A DNA stretch of 11,731 nucleotides, from IMG/VR virus record IMGVR_UViG_2690316156_000010; one strand, given 5' to 3'. Below, piece after piece: positions 1-11,731 of this stretch. The position numbers and the translations under genes are program-made. Position 1 is the stretch's first letter, and each line of letters begins with the position of its first letter. The notes under the pieces were generated by a model. It made no database searches. It saw only the letters and a list, made by a program, of their open reading frames with translations, and was not told the DNA's origin. Source of the stretch: a virus. Its lineage: Duplodnaviria; Heunggongvirae; Uroviricota; Caudoviricetes.

Positions 1-486
1 ATGGGTGGCGCGGTAAACCAGACTACGATCAATAATGGAGTGCTACAGGTTTATGGCGCGGCGACTGATCCCACGATTAAAGGAGGGCGCGGTGATGCGG
101 CATTTACGTTGGGCAATGCCGGAAGCGTTGTTGATATCAGTACGTATGAATATACCTTGCTGGATAATGGCAACCATAGCTGGAGTCTCGCAGAGAATCG
201 CGTACAAATGCCCCCTTCAACCACGGATGTGCTGAATATGGCGGCAGCACAACCGCTGGTATTTGATGCAGAACTGGACACCGTGCGTGGGCGTCTTGGT
301 AGCGTAAAAGGCGTTAATTACGATACGGCGATGTGGAGTTCGGTAATTAACAGCCGCAACAACGTGAACACTGATGCGGGAGCTGGCTTTGAGCAAACAT
401 TGACGGGCCTGACGCTCGGTATCGACAGCCGTTTCTCCCGTGAAGAAAGCAGCACAACTCAGGCGGGTGTGGTCTGGACGTTCTGA
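1..486 (+). pseudogene. Autotransporter (AIDA-I/Ag43-type) C-terminal remnant; ORF enters from beyond the window start and appears internally deleted
   Basis: Translation shows the passenger/linker-to-barrel junction (…AAAQPLVFDAELDTVRGRLGSV…MWSSVINSRNN…GLTLGIDSRF) then jumps to a barrel-end-like …VVWTF and stops, with the ~250 aa beta-barrel body missing. The Met at position 1 is probably internal. Confidence 0.4.
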
Positions 487-2706: not shown

Positions 2707-3042
2707 TTATCGGGCCAGCGGCTGAACGGATACGCCAGAACCCGCAAAGGCGGCGCATTTTTTCGCATCGGTGTCGACGCTCTCAGGCCAGTTAACGGCG
2801 GCGATATTGAATATCCCCGTCTTATAGCACTGTGCTGATTTCTGCGTCGACGTGTCAACGGGGTACGAGGTCAGATAAACAGCCTTGCCAGATTCCTGAC
2901 CATCCCACGGCTTAAACTCGCCATTGTCCGCCAGCATCAGCGGGGTAAATTCCTGAATAACGCCAGCATCAGCGGCAAAATGTACCAGCGTCGTTGATAC
3001 CTGCTGACTGCCTGCAAATAACTCAATGTATGGAGTGTTCAT
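2707..3042 (-). CDS. Head decoration protein, lambda gpD-like (111 aa)
   Basis: Motifs TPLMLAD, KPWDG, WPE, KK.AAFAG align with lambda gpD as recalled; size matches (lambda gpD is 110 aa). I place the start at ATG 3042-3040 with SD GGTGGA; the track's start at 3051 is a GTG inside that SD. Confidence 0.75.
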   Translation of the reverse strand: MNTPYIELFAGSQQVSTTLVHFAADAGVIQEFTPLMLADNGEFKPWDGQESGKAVYLTSYPVDTSTQKSAQCYKTGIFNIAAVNWPESVDTDAKKCAAFAGSGVSVQPLAR

Positions 3043-3053
3043 AGAATCCACCG

Positions 3054-4109
3054 TTAACCAATTTTGACGGTAACAAATTTGCGAATATCTGCCGGAACAG
3101 GCTGCGGTGCGCTGTGTGTCTGCACGTACTCAATCGCCGGATCGCCGTCTTCAATCCAGTTTTTCGGGTAAAACATGTTTTGCGTTGCGCCCGTTCTTAC
3201 CGCTTCCTGTTCCATAATCGCACCATAGGCCACCAGCCCTTTATTGTTGGTGTTGCCCAGGACCAGCAAATCAGGCTCAAGGAAATATTTTTCTGTGCCG
3301 TCGCTGTCAGTGTATTTGCCGGAATAGACGATAAGGGCCAGATCACCAAGATAGCCTTTAAAGCTCACCACTTCTCCCAGGTTTTTACATGCCAGCTCTG
3401 CGGCGGATTCTGAACCACGGGAGAGATCGTACAGTTCACGGAATTTTTTAAAGCTGCGTAACATGCGCCATACATCAACGCCCATAATCATGACGTTTGC
3501 GGGGCAACCTGCCTGATCTGCGTATAGCTCAATGTCATAGATTGGGTCGTGTATGTCTTTGTCCTGCTCTGACCATTTTTTACCGTCGGCCTGCTCTATG
3601 ATGTTTTTTTCCGGTATCTTCCAGTCGATTTCATAGCGCTCTATGCCTTCGCCCTCAATGATGTTTTTTCCGGTCGTTACCGCATTTACCGCCAGCCATT
3701 CCACGCGCGCTTTAATGGCGTTTATCTGGCGGCGCATGTTGCCAGTAATCAGGCGCATACGGCGGTAGGTAGGGTCGTTAAGCTGTGCTGGATCTTCTCC
3801 AGCCATGCGCATTATTGTTTTTAATGGATCGATTTCGTGTTTTGGCTTCATGTAGCCAGGGCGAATAATGCTTGTTTCGTACCCTTTATCGCGCTGAACC
3901 TGGCTACCCACCATAGGCGAACAAAACGCCGACATAGTGACTTCTTCAATATCCAGGTTATCTAACATGATGTCCTGTGTGTTGAATGTCGCCACGTTCG
4001 GGAAAAACAGCGCGGTAAACAGCGGACTGAATTTAAATTCCGCAATATCCTCGCGATTCAGGTACGCAAAAAGCTGGTTAGTGTTAAGTGATATTGCTTT
4101 TACTGTCAT
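3054..4109 (-). CDS. Major capsid protein, lambda gpE family (351 aa)
   Basis: Shared blocks with lambda gpE from memory: FKFSPLFTALFFP vs FKFDPLFLRLFFR; PGYMKPKHEIDP vs PGYVKPKHEVNP; EDPAQLNDPTYRRMRLI vs DEDPQNLADPAYRRRRII; YPKNWIEDGDPAIEYVQTHSAP vs YPKNWVTTGDPAREFTMIQSAP. ATG at 4109-4107 with SD GGGGGTGA; length close to lambda gpE (341 aa). Confidence 0.9.
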   Translation of the reverse strand: MTVKAISLNTNQLFAYLNREDIAEFKFSPLFTALFFPNVATFNTQDIMLDNLDIEEVTMSAFCSPMVGSQVQRDKGYETSIIRPGYMKPKHEIDPLKTIMRMAGEDPAQLNDPTYRRMRLITGNMRRQINAIKARVEWLAVNAVTTGKNIIEGEGIERYEIDWKIPEKNIIEQADGKKWSEQDKDIHDPIYDIELYADQAGCPANVMIMGVDVWRMLRSFKKFRELYDLSRGSESAAELACKNLGEVVSFKGYLGDLALIVYSGKYTDSDGTEKYFLEPDLLVLGNTNNKGLVAYGAIMEQEAVRTGATQNMFYPKNWIEDGDPAIEYVQTHSAPQPVPADIRKFVTVKIG

Positions 4110-5810: not shown

Positions 5811-7559
5811 TTATAAAAACGCGTCACAATCATCAGTTGTAATTGCGTTGGTCTGCGTTACTCCCTTAACTCTCCGCGTAATATATTCATGTCCGTAAAC
5901 TTTTGCCGCTGGCTTCATGGCCTTGCTGAACTCAGCCACGTTTAGCGGTTTGCTCCTGCCTGCGTATGCCATAAACGCCAGATAGACGCGGTAAAGGCTG
6001 TTTCTGGTCGTGTACTTCACGGAATCGCCACCGCCACCCATCATCAGGCCGCGCGCTTCCTCCAGAAAATTCAGGAACTGGCAAAACTCAATAACCGGAT
6101 CCGTCTGTTGCTTTATCGCCAGTGCTTCATCACCGTCGCGCTGTTCCAGTAATAAAGCCCGTGCCTTTTCAGGGTCGGCAAAATTAGCCAGCAAGCGACG
6201 GATAATTACGGGGATTTCAGCCGCGACCTTCTCCGGCAAATCCTTGTCTTTTTCGTCCTCCCTTACAATGTTGTCGAACCGGAAAATCACCCGACGGCGT
6301 GACACACCTCCGGCCCGCTCGGTGAATATCATCGGGTTATTGTTGGTAGCCAGCACCACCGCCCTGATTACCGCCGTGAAACGCTTTTCATATTTCGGGT
6401 TAATTTCCACGGGGTCGCCGCCTGTGATTTTCTTGATGCCCGTTCCTTCGCCTGTATATTTCGGCTGGTCAGCCAGGACGATAAGACGACTCCCGACAAC
6501 CTGCGCACGTCCACCAGCATCATCAAGCGATGTCATTTCAGCGCTTACCGTGTTCTGTTTCCCTGCCAGAAGGCTGGCTATGTGTGTGAATGTACTTTTA
6601 CCGCTACCGCCCTCTCCGGTGGCCTCAATAAACATCTGCCAGTCGTACCGGTTCGCCATAATCATGTACAGCGCGGCACATATACGCATCATCTTGCGCG
6701 AGTCTTTTCCGGCTGCGTGCTCAAGCCATTTATGAAAGTTTGGCGCGTTATCGCGGATGTTCTCCCCTGGTGCTGGTGGCGTGTACTCAATGCCGTTGTT
6801 CGTGGTGATCCAGTTCTCCGGCGTGTGCGGGGAAAATTCCCCCGTTTTCAGGTCAAGCGCACCATTGGCGAACGGCAGCAAATCGCCGGACGGCTCGCCC
6901 ATTGGTTCGGCAATAACTTTTAACGCTTCCACGGCGTTATTGATTACGCGCTTGCTGAAAGTGGCCCTGTGCTCTGAATAGATCGCCACCATTTCGCGGC
7001 TAAGTTCCATTGTGCTGACCGGACACCATACCCCGCCGCGCCATACGTGAACGATTTCACTTTCCGGATGCACACAAACGCCATCAAATCGACCAGCAAG
7101 CATCTGTGCGCGCTCACTGTCTGCCATTTGTGCCAGTTGCGTATTTTTCTGCTCCGGCATGGTAAGCCCTGCGGCAATATTTTCACGCTCAGCATTCAGA
7201 TAGCGCCGCCAGTTTTCACACTTCTGGACGTGCATTCCTTCGGGGTAAAAATTTGCGTCCTGAATATCTGCCGCCGCCAGCTTCTGACCAATCTTTTTGG
7301 TCTCCACCAAATCCAGTTCTCCGGCCTGGTACAGCCTTACGCGTTTTTTTCCATCAGGAACAATTTGCAGTGCATCAAGTTCGGCAAGCTGATTTGGCCC
7401 AAGCCACACAGGAGGCACATTATCGCCGGATGCGGGGCCGTCCTGCTCCTGCCACTGTTTTGCATGTGCCCACGCATCACTACCCGCGAAAATAATCACC
7501 TCTGTGTCTTTGTGTTTTATTCCGCGTGGCTGTTTTTTTACGTTCGGTGCCAGTTTCAT
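5811..7559 (-). CDS. Replication initiator: primase / D5-type helicase fusion (P4 alpha-like, 582 aa)
   Basis: Walker A P-loop GEGGSGKST mid-protein with a downstream LIVLAD hydrophobic-acidic stretch (Walker B-like); size and position (after small early ORFs, before ori) match satellite pri/rep genes. ATG at 7559-7557 overlaps the upstream stop. Confidence 0.85.
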   Translation of the reverse strand: MKLAPNVKKQPRGIKHKDTEVIIFAGSDAWAHAKQWQEQDGPASGDNVPPVWLGPNQLAELDALQIVPDGKKRVRLYQAGELDLVETKKIGQKLAAADIQDANFYPEGMHVQKCENWRRYLNAERENIAAGLTMPEQKNTQLAQMADSERAQMLAGRFDGVCVHPESEIVHVWRGGVWCPVSTMELSREMVAIYSEHRATFSKRVINNAVEALKVIAEPMGEPSGDLLPFANGALDLKTGEFSPHTPENWITTNNGIEYTPPAPGENIRDNAPNFHKWLEHAAGKDSRKMMRICAALYMIMANRYDWQMFIEATGEGGSGKSTFTHIASLLAGKQNTVSAEMTSLDDAGGRAQVVGSRLIVLADQPKYTGEGTGIKKITGGDPVEINPKYEKRFTAVIRAVVLATNNNPMIFTERAGGVSRRRVIFRFDNIVREDEKDKDLPEKVAAEIPVIIRRLLANFADPEKARALLLEQRDGDEALAIKQQTDPVIEFCQFLNFLEEARGLMMGGGGDSVKYTTRNSLYRVYLAFMAYAGRSKPLNVAEFSKAMKPAAKVYGHEYITRRVKGVTQTNAITTDDCDAFL

Positions 7560-8088: not shown

Positions 8089-8545
8089 GACTCCCCCCCT
8101 GGCGAATACGGGCGACAAAAATAAGATGTGCGTGCGGCAGCTGTGCACGTGCTTCGCGCTCAGTGGCAGCGGTAACGGTGAATATTGCAATACTGTCTGT
8201 CAGGCACTGCATAAAGCGCCAGACAAAATAAGGGCGTGCGGATACAGCCATGTGAAAGGCTCCCAGATGAATTTTAAGGAGTCTCGCTACTACGCTGTCA
8301 AACATGGTGGCGAGACGTAACAGGGTTGACAGACTGGTCATCTGGAAACCAGCGAGCACAAAGGCTCCCCCGTTACGCCCCGCCATAATGCGGGTATGGG
8401 TAGGTTTACGGACACAAAAAAACCGCTTATCGGATGTGGGCGGCTGTCCGCCAGATGTATTCAGGCTGTCAAACCCGGTCGCCATGTGGGCGACGGGGGA
8501 AGCATACAGCCCCGTGATAATTTTTTGCAAGCGGTTTTTACGCAT
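8081..8545 (-). CDS. Repeat-unit ORF B (154 aa from ATG 8545) ending in an Icd-like small domain; an internal SD+ATG at 8251 could give an independent 56-aa product
   Basis: C-terminal 56 aa MAVSARPYFVWRF…TEREARAQLPHAHLIFVARIRQGGSHA is paralogous to two other copies; GGGAG lies 8 nt before the internal ATG at 8251. The ATG at 8545 overlaps the stop of ORF A. Icd-like assignment is from memory of similarly annotated small proteins in P4/PICI elements. Confidence 0.45.
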   Translation of the reverse strand: MRKNRLQKIITGLYASPVAHMATGFDSLNTSGGQPPTSDKRFFCVRKPTHTRIMAGRNGGAFVLAGFQMTSLSTLLRLATMFDSVVARLLKIHLGAFHMAVSARPYFVWRFMQCLTDSIAIFTVTAATEREARAQLPHAHLIFVARIRQGGSHA

Positions 8546-9095
8546 GATGTGACCCCTGACGAATACGAGCGGCAAATACAGCAACACAACCTGACGGGCA
8601 ACGGCTACGCGCTTCGCGTTCTGTCCAGGCGGTTACGTGGATGATTTGAGATTCTGACGCGCCAAAGATGATAAAGCGCCAGATAAATGCGGTTTGAGAA
8701 TGTACAAGGGTAGGGATAGTAGCCATGTTGGCAGCCTCCTCAGTGTGGTTAAGATAACCGCCACGCAAAAGGCTAATTTCGCTGGTGGCGGACTGTACAG
8801 GGTTAGCCTTACCGGACACTGAAGAAACCGGCGCGGATTGCTCCGCCCCCGTACAGCCCACCATTGATAAGGTGTGACTATGCGGCACAAAAAAACACGC
8901 GGGGCGCGTGCTGTGCGCTTCAGTTGTTTTCAGGAGGCTAATCCCGACACCCGTTTTATGAGGTGCGCGGGAATCATAGCCATTTTTGCTGGTGGCGATC
9001 AAGCGGTTTTTTTCTCCGGCACTCAGTGCCAGAAAACGCCACACAAAGGCCGTTTGTGTGTGTACAAGGTGTGGTATATGATTTACGGCAACCAT
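8538..9095 (-). CDS. Repeat-unit ORF A (185 aa from ATG 9095) carrying two Icd-like repeats; an internal SD+ATG at 8726 could give an independent 62-aa product
   Basis: N-terminal copy MVAVNHIPHLVHTQTAFVWRF (SD GGAG before 9095) and C-terminal copy MATIPTLVHSQTAFIWRF…TEREARSRC…FAARIRQGSHHA (SD GAGGAGG before 8726). Between the copies, differences are mostly synonymous in this frame (CAT/CAC, ACC/ACG, GCA/GCC, CGC/CGT) and non-synonymous in the plus frame, which supports minus-strand coding. Confidence 0.45.
   Translation of the reverse strand: MVAVNHIPHLVHTQTAFVWRFLALSAGEKNRLIATSKNGYDSRAPHKTGVGISLLKTTEAHSTRPACFFVPHSHTLSMVGCTGAEQSAPVSSVSGKANPVQSATSEISLLRGGYLNHTEEAANMATIPTLVHSQTAFIWRFIIFGASESQIIHVTAWTEREARSRCPSGCVAVFAARIRQGSHHA
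8889..8910 (-). terminator. Intrinsic-terminator-like hairpin plus U7 inside ORF A (possible attenuator)
   Basis: On the minus transcript CACGCG-CCC-CGCGUG followed by UUUUUUU (plus 8896-8910 with A7 at 8889-8895), about 190 nt after the ORF A start; the U-run encodes the conserved CFFV residues. Confidence 0.35.
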
Positions 9096-9104
9096 AACGG
9101 CTCC

Positions 9105-9224
9105 TAGTTTACGTTGTTGGTTAGAAGCCCCGTTACTGCTCCTACAGTGCGGGGCTTTGCTTTTTGTGTTGATTGTGTGTAATGTGTCATTACACATAAA
9201 TACATTACATGAGGTGTAATTAAC
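9105..9224. promoter_or_regulatory. Divergent control region between the RHH gene (plus) and the early/replication operon (minus), with operator-like palindromes
   Basis: Inverted repeat TGTGTAATG-N3-CATTACACA at 9176-9196, further half-sites CATTACA (9203-9209) and TGTAAT (9215-9220), and a 7-bp-stem hairpin at 9126-9156. I could not place convincing -35/-10 boxes. Confidence 0.45.
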
Positions 9225-9404
9225 GTGTCAACACACAAAAACGAAAGGCGTGGTAATCCTCCGTTCCAGTTCCGTTTAGATCCTGACTTACGGGAAAAGA
9301 TGGAAAAGGCACAACAACAGGACGGCGATGATTCTCTTGCTGCCTGGATAAAGCGAATAATCCGCAAAGAATTACAGCAACGCGGCATAGAACCCAAAGG
9401 ATAA
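9225..9404 (+). CDS. Arc/Mnt-type ribbon-helix-helix DNA-binding protein (59 aa, GTG start; not in the ORF track)
   Basis: GTG at 9225 with SD GAGGTG 8 nt upstream and an in-frame stop just before it; translation VSTHKNERRGNPPFQFRLDPDLREKMEKAQQQDGDDSLAAWIKRIIRKELQQRGIEPKG shows the beta-strand (FQFRL) then two helices typical of Arc/CopG-type repressors. The plus strand is purine-rich here, consistent with sense orientation. Confidence 0.6.
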   Translation: MSTHKNERRGNPPFQFRLDPDLREKMEKAQQQDGDDSLAAWIKRIIRKELQQRGIEPKG

Positions 9405-9461
9405 AAACTATCAGCGCCGTGGTGTGAGGTACTCCGGCGCATTGCTTTACAGGCGCACACA

Positions 9462-9638
9462 ATGACCAACGAAGAATCAACCGAAAAAACATCACCTGCA
9501 CGAAAAAGACGACGCAGAAAGAAAGAGCATGAATCAGAACGATTCGCGCCGTGTTCTTTTGCCCTTGAGAAGTACCTTAAAGAATACTCATCAAAGGAGA
9601 GAGCTTCGCAGTTATGGCAACGAACTGAACCAGACTGA
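9462..9638 (+). CDS. Possible small basic protein (58 aa) downstream of the RHH gene; coding status uncertain
   Basis: ATG at 9462, weak SD, Lys/Arg-rich N-terminus (ARKRRRRKK). An alternative plus frame (9529-9780) and an antisense ORF also exist, so the true product here is unresolved. Confidence 0.2.
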   Translation: MTNEESTEKTSPARKRRRRKKEHESERFAPCSFALEKYLKEYSSKERASQLWQRTEPD

Positions 9639-9734
9639 TTGCATTGCCCACCAGCCTGATAGCGGCTATCATCCCCGTGCTTATGTTTGGGATCACACAC
9701 ACAAACAGCGCAGCGGGTTATCTGTTCAGAAAGA

Positions 9735-9760
9735 CGGCTCCATATCGGGGCCGCTTTTTT
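9735..9760 (+). terminator. Candidate rho-independent terminator for the plus-strand RHH transcript
   Basis: CGGCTCC (9735-9741), loop ATATC, GGGGCCG (9747-9753), then TTTTTT (9755-9760). Confidence 0.4.
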
Positions 9761-9786
9761 CGTGTTTGTCATATCTGTGATACCCG

Positions 9787-9993
9787 TTAAGCAGCCGTTC
9801 CGCGTGCTTCCTCTTCGCGTTCTTTCTGCCAGGACAACACATCATCCTCATACCATCCGCGACGGCGTAAACCAACGCGAAAACCCTGCGGAAATTCTCC
9901 GGCGTTGATCATGCTTTGCAGCGTGCTGTCTGCCTTGATGTGGATAATTTTTTTTACTTCCTGGCGAAAGATAATTTTTCTGATTGCTTCCAT
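9787..9993 (-). CDS. alpA: AlpA-family (MerR-like HTH) transcriptional regulator, 68 aa
   Basis: …IRKIIFRQEV…STLQSMINAGEFPQGFRVGLRRRGWYEDDVLSWQ matches the AlpA pattern (…FP.p.klg.R.v.W.e.ev..W…) and the position just downstream of int is typical for PICI-type islands. ATG at 9993-9991. Confidence 0.7.
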   Translation of the reverse strand: MEAIRKIIFRQEVKKIIHIKADSTLQSMINAGEFPQGFRVGLRRRGWYEDDVLSWQKEREEEARGTAA

Positions 9994-10489: not shown

Positions 10490-11731
10490 CTACACGGCTC
10501 GGATACCCCTTTTACCACTGGCGAGGGTTACGCCCGTCGCCGCAGCCTCGACAAATTCGCCCCACCAGCGCATCAGCACGATGCGTTTTTCTATGTAGTT
10601 GCTCCGGTTGTATGCCCGTCTAACTTCGTTGGTGTCGACGTGGGCAAGTGCCGCCTCTATTACGTCCGGCTCGAATCCTTCCTCGTTCGCTGCTGTGCTG
10701 AATATGGCGCGTAATCCATGAGACACCAGCACGCCAGCGAATCCCATACGCCGCAATGCTGCGTTAGCTGTCTGGCTGTTCATCGGCTGCTGTGGGTCTT
10801 TCAGACTTGGGAAAACGTAATTGCGGTGGTGGCTGATTGGTTTCATGGCCTCCAGCACCGCCATAGCCTGACCGGAAAGCGGGATAACGTGATCCCTGCG
10901 CATCTTCATGCGTCCGGCAGGTATCGTCCATTGCTTCGCGTCCAGGTTGATTTCATCCCACCGCGTTGATGACGCTTCGGCGGGACGGGTTACGGTCAGT
11001 AACTGCCATTCAATCAGTAATCTGGTCTGCCGTTCTGTTGCCGATACTGATAAAGCCTGCATAAGCTCGGGCAGCTGTTCGGGGCGGATTGTTGGCATAT
11101 GTTTTTTTACAGGTGAGGGAAACGCCTTACGCACATTCATAGCCGGATTGGCATCAATCAGCCCACTGTTGGCGGCGTAATCCATTACCTCATTAACGCG
11201 CTGTAAAACCCGCTTGAGTGTTTCCAGGTTGCCGCGCTCCTTGATGGGGGTAAGCACTTCAACGAACCTTCGGGCGGTGAGGGTATCTATTGGCGTGTTG
11301 CCGATGAACGGGAATACATATTTATCCAGCGAACGCCAGATGTCTTTAATCGTGTTGGGGGCCAGATTCTGGCTGATTTTCACCTGGTACCATGCCGCCG
11401 CCACATTTTCGAACGTGTTCCCTTGTCTTCGGGCCTCTGTCTCTCTTTTTTGCCTCTCGTGGTCCTGCGGGTCAGTTCCGGCACTGATTAACGTCCTGTA
11501 CTCGCTACGGCGTTTTCTGGCATCAGCCAGGGAAACATCTTCAAGCGATCCAAAACTCAGCAATATTCTTTTTTTGTCCGATGGTCGGTAGTAGGAAAAT
11601 CTCCAGAGTTTTGATCCAGACGGTTTGACCAGGAGAAAAAGCCCTCCGCCGTCCTGCAGGGTGTACTCCTTTTGCGCTGGTCTGGCTGCTTTGATCTGCA
11701 CTGTGGTTAATGGGTGTGTTTTTCTCGCCAT
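10490..11731 (-). CDS. int: Tyrosine recombinase / integrase, P4-type (413 aa)
   Basis: N-terminal arm-binding-like region (…LFLLVKPSGSKLWRFSYY…) and C-terminal catalytic motifs (HGLRAIF = H-x-x-R; RRAYNRSNY with the Tyr). The ATG is the last three bases of the window, so the attachment site and tRNA are outside it. Confidence 0.9.
   Translation of the reverse strand: MARKTHPLTTVQIKAARPAQKEYTLQDGGGLFLLVKPSGSKLWRFSYYRPSDKKRILLSFGSLEDVSLADARKRRSEYRTLISAGTDPQDHERQKRETEARRQGNTFENVAAAWYQVKISQNLAPNTIKDIWRSLDKYVFPFIGNTPIDTLTARRFVEVLTPIKERGNLETLKRVLQRVNEVMDYAANSGLIDANPAMNVRKAFPSPVKKHMPTIRPEQLPELMQALSVSATERQTRLLIEWQLLTVTRPAEASSTRWDEINLDAKQWTIPAGRMKMRRDHVIPLSGQAMAVLEAMKPISHHRNYVFPSLKDPQQPMNSQTANAALRRMGFAGVLVSHGLRAIFSTAANEEGFEPDVIEAALAHVDTNEVRRAYNRSNYIEKRIVLMRWWGEFVEAAATGVTLASGKRGIRAV

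What the first reader, a model, noticed from the sequence alone, without database searches (positions are those of the whole stretch)
9105..9404. Unannotated GTG-start Arc/Mnt-type repressor gene divergent from the replication operon
A clear ribbon-helix-helix ORF (59 aa) is below the track's length cut-off. It is the only convincing plus-strand gene in the island and sits beside a perfect 9-bp inverted repeat with 3-bp spacer plus extra half-sites. Gram-negative PICIs are generally described as AlpA-activated without a dedicated repressor, so an Arc-like repressor at this position would be a distinct control layer.
Basis: partly seen in the sequence, partly recalled or inferred. Interest (0 to 1): 0.6.

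Follow-up and report, generated by a model that had tools for sequence, protein, structure and literature searches.

The report
Arc-like repressor gene in PICI
A real, strongly conserved 59-residue ribbon-helix-helix protein gene sits on top of the promoter of a phage-satellite island's replication operon, next to binding-site-like repeats that change whenever the protein's DNA-reading strand changes, which makes it a testable candidate for the repressor that Gram-negative satellite islands were thought to lack.

Summary
The GTG-start ORF at 9225-9404 (+) is a real gene. Its pN/pS is 0.13, and it keeps 51-62 aa in Enterobacterales, Orbaceae, Pasteurellaceae and Aeromonadales. The predicted fold matches only ribbon-helix-helix (RHH) proteins, and it hits PHROG "Arc-like repressor". 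The perfect 9-bp inverted repeat at 9176-9196 is there.

New evidence:
- The family splits into at least 5 classes that differ in the N-terminal DNA-reading strand. Each class has its own palindromic repeats at the same two positions.
- One repeat fills the spacer of a conserved minus-strand promoter whose -35 (TTGACA) overlaps the RHH start codon. This promoter drives the ash/C4/icd to primase operon.
- The other repeat covers the start points of that promoter and of the gene's own promoter, which face each other.

Most likely the protein is a class-specific, autoregulated repressor of the early/replication operon, comparable to Mnt/Arc in P22 immI. Repression itself is inferred, not shown.

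- RefSeq already annotates the ORF as a hypothetical protein.
- It is not the only plus-strand gene.
- The island also carries C4/isrK immunity RNAs and an undescribed antisense RNA.
- The prototype EcCICFT073 has a small protein of the RHH-related YlcI/YnfO family in the same slot.

Verdict: a new member of a known kind. Interest 0.6.

The parts
9225..9404 (+). 59-aa ribbon-helix-helix gene (GTG start; stop included). Predicted strand about residues 13-18 (PFQFRL), helix A 20-33, helix B 38-53.
9211..9214 (+). GAGG Shine-Dalgarno-like element, 10 nt before the GTG
   Evidence: read from the sequence
9176..9196 (.). Distal operator candidate: perfect inverted repeat TGTGTAATG-TGT-CATTACACA. 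It covers the -10 of the + promoter and both predicted start points.
9214..9224 (.). Proximal operator candidate GTGTAATTAAC. It abuts the start codon and lies inside the -35/-10 spacer of the minus-strand promoter. Class-specific counterparts are GGTAATTACC (class C), TGTAATTACA (class D) and GTGTC(N)GACAC (class B).
9226..9231 (-). -35 hexamer TTGACA of the minus-strand early promoter. It is the reverse complement of codons 1-3 of the RHH gene.
   Evidence: the Ser codon is TCA in about 94% of 79 loci
9202..9207 (-). -10 hexamer TAATGT of the minus-strand early promoter (18-nt spacer). Predicted start near 9195.
   Evidence: inferred, not mapped
9157..9162 (+). -35-like TTGCTT of the RHH gene's own promoter. 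It lies in the T-run of the upstream terminator.
9180..9185 (+). -10-like TAATGT of the RHH promoter (17-nt spacer). Predicted start near 9192.
   Evidence: inferred
9089..9166 (+). Candidate antisense small RNA of about 77 nt. SL1 is 9096-9115, with the anti-Shine-Dalgarno CTCC in its loop. SL2 is the terminator hairpin 9125-9157 plus T-run. The RNA is complementary to the ribosome-binding site and start codon of the first early gene.
9077..9082 (+). -10 hexamer TATGAT of the antisense-RNA promoter, inside codons 5-7 of the minus-strand ash gene
8757..9095 (-). First gene of the early operon: ash family, truncated in this island. It is the target of the promoter under RHH control.
8303..8966 (-). 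RNA-immunity modules in the early leader: isrK 8890-8966, C4 8781-8868, c4-a1b1 8458-8507, C4 8303-8390. They are interleaved with Icd-like ORFs.
9462..9638 (+). ORF2: 58 aa, basic, function unknown. It is co-oriented with and downstream of the RHH gene. Detected only in the 4 E. coli and Shigella loci of the 88-locus tblastn set, and seen separately in EcCICFT073 by translation.
9735..9763 (+). Intrinsic-terminator-like hairpin plus T-run on the + strand, ending the RHH/ORF2 unit before the convergent alpA-like gene
9787..9993 (-). alpA-like HTH/excisionase-family gene, convergent with the RHH gene and upstream of the early operon on the same strand

Best explanation
The ORF encodes a small Arc/Mnt-like ribbon-helix-helix DNA-binding protein. 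As a dimer, probably a dimer of dimers, it would recognise class-specific palindromic operators through its N-terminal beta-strand. In this island the operators are TGTAAT-type sites.

The operators lie in a compact control region holding two face-to-face promoters.
- The leftward early promoter has -35 TTGACA at 9231-9226, overlapping the RHH start codon, and -10 at 9207-9202. It drives ash, the C4/icd modules, DUF4222 and the primase.
- The rightward promoter (9157-9185) drives the RHH gene itself.
- Their predicted start points nearly coincide, at about 9192 and 9195.

The proximal operator (9214-9224) fills the spacer of the early promoter. The distal operator (9176-9196) covers both start points. 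Binding should therefore shut off the early/replication operon and, at higher occupancy, the protein's own synthesis. This would keep the island quiescent in an island-class-specific way.

This protein layer would act together with two RNA layers on the same operon: a plus-strand antisense RNA over the first gene's ribosome-binding site, and the C4/isrK immunity RNAs.

Induction would bypass or overcome it. The most plausible route is AlpA-dependent transcription entering from the alpA side, antisense to the RHH gene, because the only terminator between them is oriented for the + strand.

Shown in silico: real gene, RHH fold, co-variation of operators with the DNA-reading strand, and conserved promoter geometry. 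Inferred: DNA binding, repression, autoregulation and the induction route.
For: Gene reality:
- pN/pS is 0.13.
- 117 homologues of conserved length across several families of Gammaproteobacteria.

Fold:
- AF2 gives helices 20-33 and 38-53 at pLDDT 93, preceded by an extended segment.
- Nearly all of the 38 Foldseek PDB hits are RHH or RHH-like (NikR, Arc 1par TM 0.68/0.76, CopG, ParD, AmrZ); the clear exception is a methionyl-tRNA synthetase at rank 16.
- phrog_228 'Arc-like repressor' scores 2e-6 for classes A, B and C.
- The broadened profile hits HP0222, NikA, TacA, CopG, VapB, SvtR and Arc in the PDB. Distant members hit Pfam HicB, RHH_1, NikA-like, RHH_10 and others.

Operator link:
- The beta-strand classes are A PPFQFRL, B KQIALRV, C (P/Q)(Y/F)QMRL and D DQYQIRL. 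Each has its own palindrome in two copies at equivalent positions.
- Operators follow the RHH class, not the type of the neighbouring early gene.
- The window and the O26 island are about 100% identical on both sides but differ across operators plus RHH codons 1 to about 45. This is a natural cassette swap.
- N-terminal pN is 0.49 against C-terminal pN 0.17, with pS saturated in both.
- The exact operator is essentially found only next to the gene.

Promoter geometry:
- TTGACA(16-18)TAnnnT on the minus strand occurs in 69 of 77 regions, against 1% of shuffles.
- TTGnnn(16-18)TAnnnT on the plus strand occurs in 69 of 77 regions, against 6% of shuffles.
- The -10 hexamers are mostly 16 nt apart.

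Synteny:
- The primase homologue is always on the divergent side. The integrase homologue lies on the convergent side, with two extra plus-strand copies in 88 loci.
- The same slot in Klebsiella and Mannheimia islands holds the gene.
- EcCICFT073 carries a 59-aa YlcI/YnfO-family protein in that slot.
Against: - There is no experimental datum for this protein or any homologue.
- The promoters are not consensus matches and were missed by the standard scan. No start point has been mapped.
- In class A the operator half-sites overlap the -10 hexamers, so part of the symmetry could come from the two promoters alone.
- Co-variation of operators with the N-terminus could partly reflect physical linkage in one recombination cassette.
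- In EcCICFT073, AlpA over-expression alone induces excision and runaway replication (PMC6092414). Any RHH block is therefore not absolute there.
- The early operon already has RNA-based immunity elements, which could make the protein a minor player.
- No other operator copies exist in the island, so it is a local regulator, not a global one.
Confidence: 0.6

Rival explanations
1. The protein is an Arc-like shut-off factor rather than a maintenance repressor. It would be made mainly after induction and would limit over-expression of the early (ash/Bro/Icd-like, primase) operon, as Arc limits ant expression in P22 lytic growth. Quiescence would be kept by the RNAs and by the lack of AlpA.
For: The operator and promoter evidence is the same as for the main model. 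AlpA alone suffices for induction in EcCICFT073. RNA immunity elements are present.
Against: The gene has its own promoter facing the early promoter. It is not part of the early operon, unlike arc. The hetero-specific classes look like immunity determinants.
Confidence: 0.15
2. The protein only autoregulates, or insulates, its own small + strand unit (RHH, with ORF2 where present). It would have no consequence for the replication operon.
For: The distal operator overlaps its own -10 and start point. Small RHH autoregulators are common (general knowledge).
Against: The proximal operator sits exactly in the spacer of the conserved minus-strand promoter in every class. The Ser-2 codon is held as TCA to keep TTGACA. 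ORF2 is absent from most loci.
Confidence: 0.1
3. The protein is an orphan or unconventional type II antitoxin (JGI names homologues 'HicB family'), with ORF2 or another neighbour as the toxin.
For: RHH antitoxin families appear among weak hits: VapB at 0.012, HicB, TacA and CopG_antitoxin for distant members. A recent survey lists 'HicB' among PICI accessory genes (PMC13612085).
Against: There is no conserved downstream partner. ORF2 was found only in the E. coli/Shigella loci of the tblastn set and in EcCICFT073, and Klebsiella loci have nothing between the gene and alpA. ORF2 hits no toxin family. The C-terminus is only a short tail, not a toxin-binding domain.
Confidence: 0.04
4. The protein acts mainly in trans on other elements, either helper-phage promoters (interference) or sibling islands (incompatibility), rather than on its own island.
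For: Up to six related places occur per E. coli genome. Specificity classes would matter most when elements coexist. Two classes occur in tandem in Citrobacter.
Against: Of 38 exact operator copies in the viral collection, 36 lie next to the gene itself, one is cut by a contig end, and only one has no gene beside it. Only exact matches of one class were searched.
Confidence: 0.08
5. The ORF is not a gene. The real feature would be the 222-aa minus-strand ORF (9104-9772), or non-coding DNA.
For: A long stop-free minus-strand stretch crosses the gene in many loci, with a median of 154 aa. PGAP placed an 'Icd-like' pseudogene there in O26 11368.
Against: The plus frame has pN/pS 0.13 against 0.29 in the minus frame. 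The minus frame has stops in 6 of 24 class-A sequences. The 222-aa product has no family hit. The plus-frame protein has a confident fold and profile hits.
Confidence: 0.01

Closest known systems
Mnt and Arc repressors of the phage P22 immI region (with sar antisense RNA)
   Same: Both are small RHH proteins with a PxFxFR-type recognition strand. hhalign against Mnt aligns residues 8-49 with Mnt 2-42 at P = 8e-4 (the Mnt sequence was recalled from memory). Both genes are divergent from an operon that starts with antirepressor-like genes. Both have operators overlapping that operon's promoter. Both systems include an antisense RNA over the first gene's ribosome-binding site (P22 facts from PMC2629481).
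   Different: The protein is not a Pfam Arc member. It has no Mnt-like C-terminal tetramerisation domain. There is a single protein instead of two. The controlled operon leads to a primase, not only to ant. The -35 of the opposing promoter lies inside the gene's first codons. The element is a satellite island, not a phage.
P1/P7 immI (C4 antisense RNA, icd, ant) and P4 CI RNA immunity
   Same: The operon downstream of the RHH-controlled promoter carries two C4 RNAs, an a1b1 target and isrK elements above Rfam gathering scores, together with Icd-like ORFs. PMC10111431 already reports C4/isrK hits in GN-PICIs.
   Different: Those systems, as far as I recall, have no divergent RHH gene at the promoter. 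tblastn of the 59-aa protein found four phage records, one a 15-kb Pasteurella record and two short unannotated records, and none is P4, P1 or P7.
Stl/Rpr master repressors of Gram-positive PICIs (SaPIs)
   Same: The position and logic match: a regulatory gene transcribed divergently from the xis/replication operon (PMC6092414).
   Different: Stl proteins are larger and, from my knowledge, HTH-type repressors relieved by helper-phage proteins. Here the protein is a 59-aa RHH. No inducer is known, and AlpA activation is the established trigger.
YlcI/YnfO family (NF041551, DUF3950) protein of EcCICFT073
   Same: It has the same slot, the same 59-aa size and the same orientation in the prototype GN-PICI. 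It is followed by an ORF2 homologue and preceded by the same terminator hairpin, with its own repeats AGGTGTGGCCCAC x2. There is weak mutual similarity, with E about 1e-3 to the NCBIfam model.
   Different: The window protein scores 20 bits against a cut-off of 30. hhalign against the CFT073 protein is not significant. The intergenic region is longer and organised differently.
CopG, omega and other plasmid RHH repressors
   Same: They share the fold, the size and binding to short repeated or palindromic sites at promoters (structural hits).
   Different: They control plasmid copy number or partition. No such context exists here.

Membership tests
Ribbon-helix-helix (MetJ/Arc) superfamily | Beta-strand followed by two helices in a domain of about 45 residues | tested here: met
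   AF2 gives an extended N-terminal segment, then helices 20-33 and 38-53 at pLDDT 93. DSSP does not call the strand in a monomer model, as expected for a strand that pairs only in the dimer.
Ribbon-helix-helix (MetJ/Arc) superfamily | Structural similarity to solved RHH proteins | tested here: met
Ribbon-helix-helix (MetJ/Arc) superfamily | Sequence-profile continuity with RHH families | tested here: met
   phrog_228 'Arc-like repressor' scores 2e-6. The broadened profile hits PDB RHH chains at E of 0.007-0.1. Distant members hit HicB (4.5e-7), RHH_1, NikA-like and RHH_10. The window protein alone has no Pfam hit.
Ribbon-helix-helix (MetJ/Arc) superfamily | Obligate dimer forming a two-stranded antiparallel sheet that enters the major groove | not testable with these tools
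   Only monomer prediction was available.
Arc/Mnt family in the strict sense (Pfam PF03869) | Significant match to the Arc family model | tested here: not met
   No hit at E of 0.1 or better. One distant relative scores 0.063. hhalign gives P = 8e-4 against Mnt and 2e-3 against Arc. It works like Arc/Mnt but is not a sequence member.
YlcI/YnfO family (NF041551) | Score above the curated cut-off (30 bits) | tested here: not met
   20 bits. Classes B, C and D score 18.7-19.5 bits.
Type II toxin-antitoxin antitoxin (HicB, VapB or ParD-like) | Adjacent, co-transcribed cognate toxin gene conserved with it | tested here: not met
   No conserved partner. ORF2 has no toxin-family hit.
Mobile-element immunity repressor (functional class) | Repeated operators overlapping the promoter of the lytic or replication operon | tested here: met
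   The proximal palindrome lies in the -35/-10 spacer and the distal one lies at the start points, conserved in all classes. The promoters are predicted, not mapped.
Mobile-element immunity repressor (functional class) | Specificity classes in which the recognition element and the operators change together | tested here: met
Mobile-element immunity repressor (functional class) | Loss of the protein de-represses the element, and the protein binds the operators | not testable with these tools
   Requires EMSA, reporters and deletion mutants.
Gram-negative PICI of the EcCICFT073 type (host element) | int, alpA-like gene and primase co-oriented, about 10-15 kb, at a specific chromosomal site, with an EcCICFT073-like late module | tested here: met
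   The window has int, an alpA-like gene, DUF4222, a D5_N primase, SSB, PerC, and lambda E- and D-like capsid genes. It lies at tRNA-Pro next to yejM. EcCICFT073 has the same late genes. Helper-dependent induction was not testable.

The most novel reading that the evidence does not exclude
The RHH protein, the plus-strand antisense RNA and the C4/isrK RNAs together form a three-layer, immI-like immunity switch. This switch would define hetero-immune classes of Gram-negative PICIs and be the long-sought master repression system of these islands. In this reading, the nearly invariant C-terminal helix and tail (WIKRIIRKELQQRGIEPKG) is the surface through which a helper-phage or host factor inactivates the repressor, as helper proteins inactivate Stl in SaPIs. 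That tail is conserved at the protein level while synonymous sites are saturated. AlpA would then be the downstream amplifier rather than the primary sensor.
Probability: 0.15. Interest if true: 0.85.

Novelty: new member of a known kind. Interest (0 to 1): 0.6.

Why it matters
For Gram-negative phage-inducible chromosomal islands the published model is activation by AlpA. [quoted passage not shown]

This small gene occupies a fixed slot between alpA and the early/replication operon. It does so in islands from Enterobacterales, Orbaceae, Pasteurellaceae and Aeromonadales. The prototype EcCICFT073 carries a small protein of the RHH-related YlcI/YnfO family in the same slot.

The gene comes with class-specific operators placed exactly where a repressor of the early promoter would bind. 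That makes an open question directly testable with a 59-residue protein and a 70-bp DNA fragment.

If confirmed, it would explain three things: how these islands stay silent, why related islands can coexist in one cell, and how specificity cassettes are exchanged.

The gene is also regularly missed or mis-annotated. In O26 11368 a pseudogene is called on the opposite strand across it.

Tried and rejected
- Pfam scan of the ORF: no hit at E of 0.1 or better.
- PDB sequence search with the narrow family profile: only noise. It became informative only after distant relatives from the 1.84-billion-protein scan were added.
- Toxin-antitoxin reading: rejected, because no conserved partner exists.
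- The 222-aa minus-strand ORF, annotated by PGAP as a pseudogene in O26: rejected as a shadow frame.
- Additional operator copies elsewhere in the island, for example at alpA or int: none found.
- Operator copies in helper phages: of 38 exact matches, 36 lie beside the gene. One match inside a 287-kb contig (L096) was not examined.
- Rfam family for the hairpin or antisense RNA: none found.
- Standard promoter scan: found nothing in 9100-9224. The class-A -10 hexamers match the TATAAT consensus at too few positions for that scan. The promoters were instead inferred from cross-locus conservation.
- Similarity to the EcCICFT073 slot protein by hhalign: not significant, so only positional equivalence is claimed.
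- Literature searches for an RHH or Arc-like regulator in PICIs: nothing found.
Full report
WHAT THE WINDOW IS

The window matches the chromosome of E. coli S1-CAM-02-A at 100% across the 801-base stretch searched (9000-9800), and that record's gene order matches the window's ORFs. It is a satellite island of about 11 kb inserted at tRNA-Pro next to yejM. On the minus strand it carries:
- an integrase (10490-11731);
- a small hypothetical gene;
- an alpA-like HTH/excisionase-family gene (9787-9993);
- an early operon: a truncated ash gene (8757-9095), two Icd-like ORFs, a hypothetical gene, DUF4222 and a D5_N-type primase (5811-7559);
- SSB, PerC, and lambda E-like capsid and D-like decoration genes.

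The prototype Gram-negative PICI, EcCICFT073, has the same gene order and the same late genes. The island is therefore an EcCICFT073-type PICI.

The ORF at 9225-9404 (+) encodes 59 residues. An in-frame TGA at 9210-9212 makes GTG 9225 the first possible start. GAGG lies at 9211-9214.

The perfect inverted repeat TGTGTAATG-TGT-CATTACACA lies at 9176-9196. Further TGTAAT/ATTACA hexamers lie at 9204-9209 and 9215-9220. These motifs occur nowhere else in the window.

RefSeq does annotate the ORF, as hypothetical protein WP_000103622.1. In the related O26:H11 11368 island the homologous ORF is not annotated. A pseudogene is called on the opposite strand across it.

IT IS A GENE

A search of 5.8 billion proteins returned 117 relatives. 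Nearly all are 51-62 aa and come from many genera of Enterobacterales plus Mannheimia and Frischella. A genome scan added Gilliamella, Pasteurella, Testudinibacter, Oceanisphaera and Oceanimonas.

Over 24 distinct class-A coding sequences, synonymous sites are saturated (pS 0.79) while pN is 0.106, a ratio of 0.13. The overlapping 222-aa minus-strand frame has a ratio of 0.29, stops in 6 of 24 sequences, and no family hit.

The GTG start is conserved in 38 of 39 class-A loci and aligns with the ATG of the other classes.

IT HAS A RIBBON-HELIX-HELIX FOLD

Pfam gives nothing for the protein itself. NCBIfam gives only a sub-threshold YlcI/YnfO match of 20 bits against a cut-off of 30. The evidence for the fold comes from elsewhere:
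- AlphaFold2 with the family alignment predicts an extended N-terminal segment followed by helices 20-33 and 38-53 at pLDDT 93.
- Nearly all of the 38 Foldseek hits in the PDB are RHH or RHH-like proteins: NikR, pCXC100 ParB, CopA, VapB, Arc, CopG, PutA, AmrZ, NikA, ParD and MatP. The clear exception is a methionyl-tRNA synthetase at rank 16. E-values are near 1 because the domain is so small.
- PHROGs assigns classes A, B and C to phrog_228 "Arc-like repressor" at E of 2e-6 to 7e-5.
- An exhaustive profile scan of 1.84 billion representatives found only 63 relatives, so the family is small.
- A profile that includes the distant relatives hits HP0222, NikA, TacA, a CopG-family protein, VapB26, SvtR and Arc in the PDB.
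- Those distant relatives individually hit Pfam HicB, NikA-like, RHH_1, TacA1, RHH_10 and others.
- hhalign places residues 8-49 on Mnt 2-42 in the correct register, with P = 8e-4.

The conclusion is that this is an RHH protein that resembles Arc and Mnt in its PxFxFR strand. By sequence it is not a member of Pfam Arc, nor of YlcI/YnfO.

THE REPEATS BEHAVE AS ITS OPERATORS

In 79 distinct loci the C-terminal half is almost invariant (DGD.SLAAWIKRIIRKELQ.RGIEPKG). The N-terminal strand falls into classes:
- class A: RRGNPPFQFRL;
- class A2: (G/K)S(Q/A)PFQLRL;
- class B: GKGNKQIA(L/F)RV;
- class C: EKRS(P/K)(Q/P)(Y/F)QMRL;
- class D: KAKTDQYQIRL.

Between classes the strand block has pN 0.49 and the C-terminal block has pN 0.17. 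pS is saturated in both (0.79 and 0.82). The C-terminal conservation is therefore at the protein level, and the strand is the fast-evolving part.

Each class has its own repeat in the intergenic region:
- class A has TGTAAT/ATTACA hexamers, at 2.0 per 81 nt against 0.05 elsewhere;
- class C has GGTAATTACC, at 1.24 per region against 0 elsewhere;
- class D has TGTAATTACA twice;
- class B has GTGTC(N)GACAC-like sites.

One copy always abuts the start codon. The classes that share Gln-15 and Arg-17 (A, C, D) share the TAAT/ATTA core. Class B, with Ala-15, has a different core. This is what beta-sheet recognition would predict, but it is my inference.

The repeats follow the RHH class and not the neighbouring early gene. 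The same early-gene N-terminal families occur with several classes.

The clearest case is a natural swap. The window (class A) and the O26 11368 island (class C) are about 100% identical up to the end of the hairpin, and again from RHH codon 45 or so onward. They differ only across the operators and the recognition half of the gene.

In 2.9 million viral contigs, 36 of 38 exact copies of the class-A core are followed by a class-A gene at a fixed distance. One of the other two is cut by a contig end.

WHERE THE OPERATORS SIT

On the minus strand, the reverse complement of codons 1-3, (A/G)TGTCAAC, reads TTGACA. The Ser-2 codon is TCA in about 94% of 79 loci, which is a constraint at the DNA level.

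Sixteen to eighteen nt further on lies a TAnnnT hexamer in 69 of 77 distinct regions, against 1% of shuffles. In the window this is TTGACA 9231-9226, an 18-nt spacer and TAATGT 9207-9202. The spacer is the proximal operator.

On the plus strand, TTGnnn lies in the T-run after the upstream hairpin, followed by a 16-18 nt spacer and TAnnnT. This also occurs in 69 of 77 regions, against 6% of shuffles. In the window it is TTGCTT 9157-9162 and TAATGT 9180-9185.

The two -10 hexamers face each other, usually 16 nt apart. The predicted start points therefore nearly coincide, at about 9192 (+) and 9195 (-). The distal operator lies between or over them.

The standard promoter scan missed both promoters, because the class-A -10 hexamers match the consensus at too few positions. 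The promoters remain predictions.

This geometry is that of a repressor which blocks the early promoter at its spacer and start point and also limits its own synthesis. With face-to-face promoters, silencing the early promoter should also free the RHH promoter.

OTHER CONTROL LAYERS ON THE SAME OPERON

Rfam finds two C4 antisense RNAs, an isrK element and a c4-a1b1 target above gathering scores in the early leader. Such hits in GN-PICIs have been reported before (PMC10111431).

There is also a candidate plus-strand RNA of about 77 nt at roughly 9089-9166.
- Its -10 (TATGAT 9077-9082) lies 10 nt before the CAT that is the start codon of the first early gene.
- In all 60 distinct loci listed, the TAnnnT pattern is kept although the encoded residues vary. 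Codon 6 is CAT, TCT, TGT, AGT, CGT, GAT, TTT, TAT or GGT. Its third base is always T, never the synonymous C.
- The RNA would have a first stem-loop that presents CCTC/CTCC, the complement of the Shine-Dalgarno sequence. One of its pairs covaries (GC 30, AU 12, CG 3).
- Its second stem-loop is a terminator hairpin with compensatory changes in 8 of 13 pairs. 96% of cells are paired, against 37-51% in slid controls.
- Stems contain 72 G.T against 6 A.C mispairs, which assigns the structure to the plus strand.
- No Rfam family matches it.

The combination of a divergent RHH gene, an antisense RNA over the first ribosome-binding site, and antirepressor-like first genes recalls P22 immI, which has mnt, arc, sar and ant (PMC2629481). 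The C4/icd part recalls P1 immI and P4.

HOW INDUCTION MIGHT FIT

In EcCICFT073, AlpA is an activator. It is induced by the helper phage, is required for transfer, and is sufficient when over-expressed. [quoted passage not shown]

Here the only terminator-like site between alpA and the early operon is oriented for the plus strand (9735-9763). Klebsiella loci show the same arrangement. AlpA-dependent transcripts could therefore run antisense through the RHH gene into the early operon. That would bypass the repressed promoter and interfere with RHH expression. This is inference only.

EcCICFT073 carries, in the same slot and orientation, a 59-aa YlcI/YnfO-family protein followed by an ORF2 homologue. 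It has its own repeats (AGGTGTGGCCCAC x2) and the same hairpin. I found no paper that discusses it. A 2026 survey merely lists "HicB" and "YlcI/YnfO" among PICI accessory genes.

RIVAL READINGS

- An antitoxin role is unlikely, because no conserved partner exists.
- A role limited to self-regulation does not explain the proximal operator in the early-promoter spacer.
- An Arc-like late shut-off role remains possible.
- A trans role on helper phages finds no support from exact operator matches.

VERDICT

The fold assignment and the operator link are well supported. The repressor function is a strong but untested inference, with confidence 0.6.

The protein is a new, unnamed family within a known kind, the RHH repressors of mobile-element immunity regions. 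Its main value is that it gives Gram-negative PICI biology a concrete, easily testable repressor candidate.

Noticed in passing
window 9077-9166 (+): Candidate antisense small RNA of about 77 nt. Its -10 is conserved inside the first codons of the early gene. It has an anti-Shine-Dalgarno loop and a covarying intrinsic terminator on the plus strand, complementary to the ribosome-binding site and start codon of the first early gene. No Rfam family matches it.
   Followed up: partly
window 8303-8966 (-): Two tandem C4 antisense RNA genes (75 and 73 bits), an isrK element (62 bits) and a c4-a1b1 target (46.8 bits), interleaved with two Icd-like ORFs in the leader of the primase operon. This is P1/P4-type RNA immunity, duplicated.
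   Followed up: partly
window 9462-9638 (+): ORF2: 58 aa with a basic KRRRRKK stretch, downstream of the RHH gene. It is clearly similar to an ORF in the same place in EcCICFT073, hits phrog_21027 (unknown function) at 2e-12, and is annotated in only some RefSeq genomes. In the 88-locus set it was found only in E. coli and Shigella.
   Followed up: partly
L003 3245-3760 (O26:H11 11368, NC_013361) and window 9104-9772 (-): PGAP calls an 'Icd-like' pseudogene on the minus strand across the intact but unannotated class-C RHH gene. The equivalent 222-aa minus-strand ORF in the window has no family hit and looks like a shadow frame. This is probably a misannotation.
   Followed up: partly
A2 alignment: window 9040-9470 against L003 3037-3465: Sharp mosaic boundaries. 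The two islands are about 100% identical on both sides and differ only across the operators plus RHH codons 1 to about 45. This is a specificity cassette exchanged between otherwise near-identical islands.
   Followed up: yes
window 9345-9401 (RHH residues 41-59): Helix B and the tail WIKRIIRKELQQRGIEPKG are nearly invariant across all classes and four bacterial orders, although synonymous sites are saturated. The constraint seems stronger than dimerisation alone would need, so this may be a partner-binding surface.
   Followed up: partly
L031 3769-4174 and L040 3763-4168 (Citrobacter): Two RHH genes of different classes (B then A) lie in tandem, each preceded by repeats of its own class.
   Followed up: no
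L090 9474-9653 (EcCICFT073, NC_004431 1380473-1380652): The prototype GN-PICI carries a 59-aa YlcI/YnfO-family protein in the same slot and orientation. Direct repeats AGGTGTGGCCCAC x2 lie upstream, and the same terminator hairpin is present.
   Followed up: partly
window 9735-9763 (+): A strong terminator-like hairpin plus T-run, reported only on the plus strand, lies between ORF2 and the convergent alpA-like gene. Minus-strand transcripts from alpA may therefore read through.
   Followed up: no
window 8757-9095 (-): The first early gene (ash family) is annotated as truncated, missing its C-terminus. The isrK and first C4 elements lie within or just after it.
   Followed up: no
window 1-486 (+) and 2707-4109 (-): The left end of the window is the yejO autotransporter pseudogene, which is chromosomal flank. 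The island's late module has lambda E-like capsid and D-like decoration genes plus PerC, as in EcCICFT073.
   Followed up: no
L096 (IMGVR_UViG_3300013104_000001, 287-kb contig): This is the only exact copy of the class-A operator core with no RHH gene detected beside it. It was not examined.
   Followed up: no
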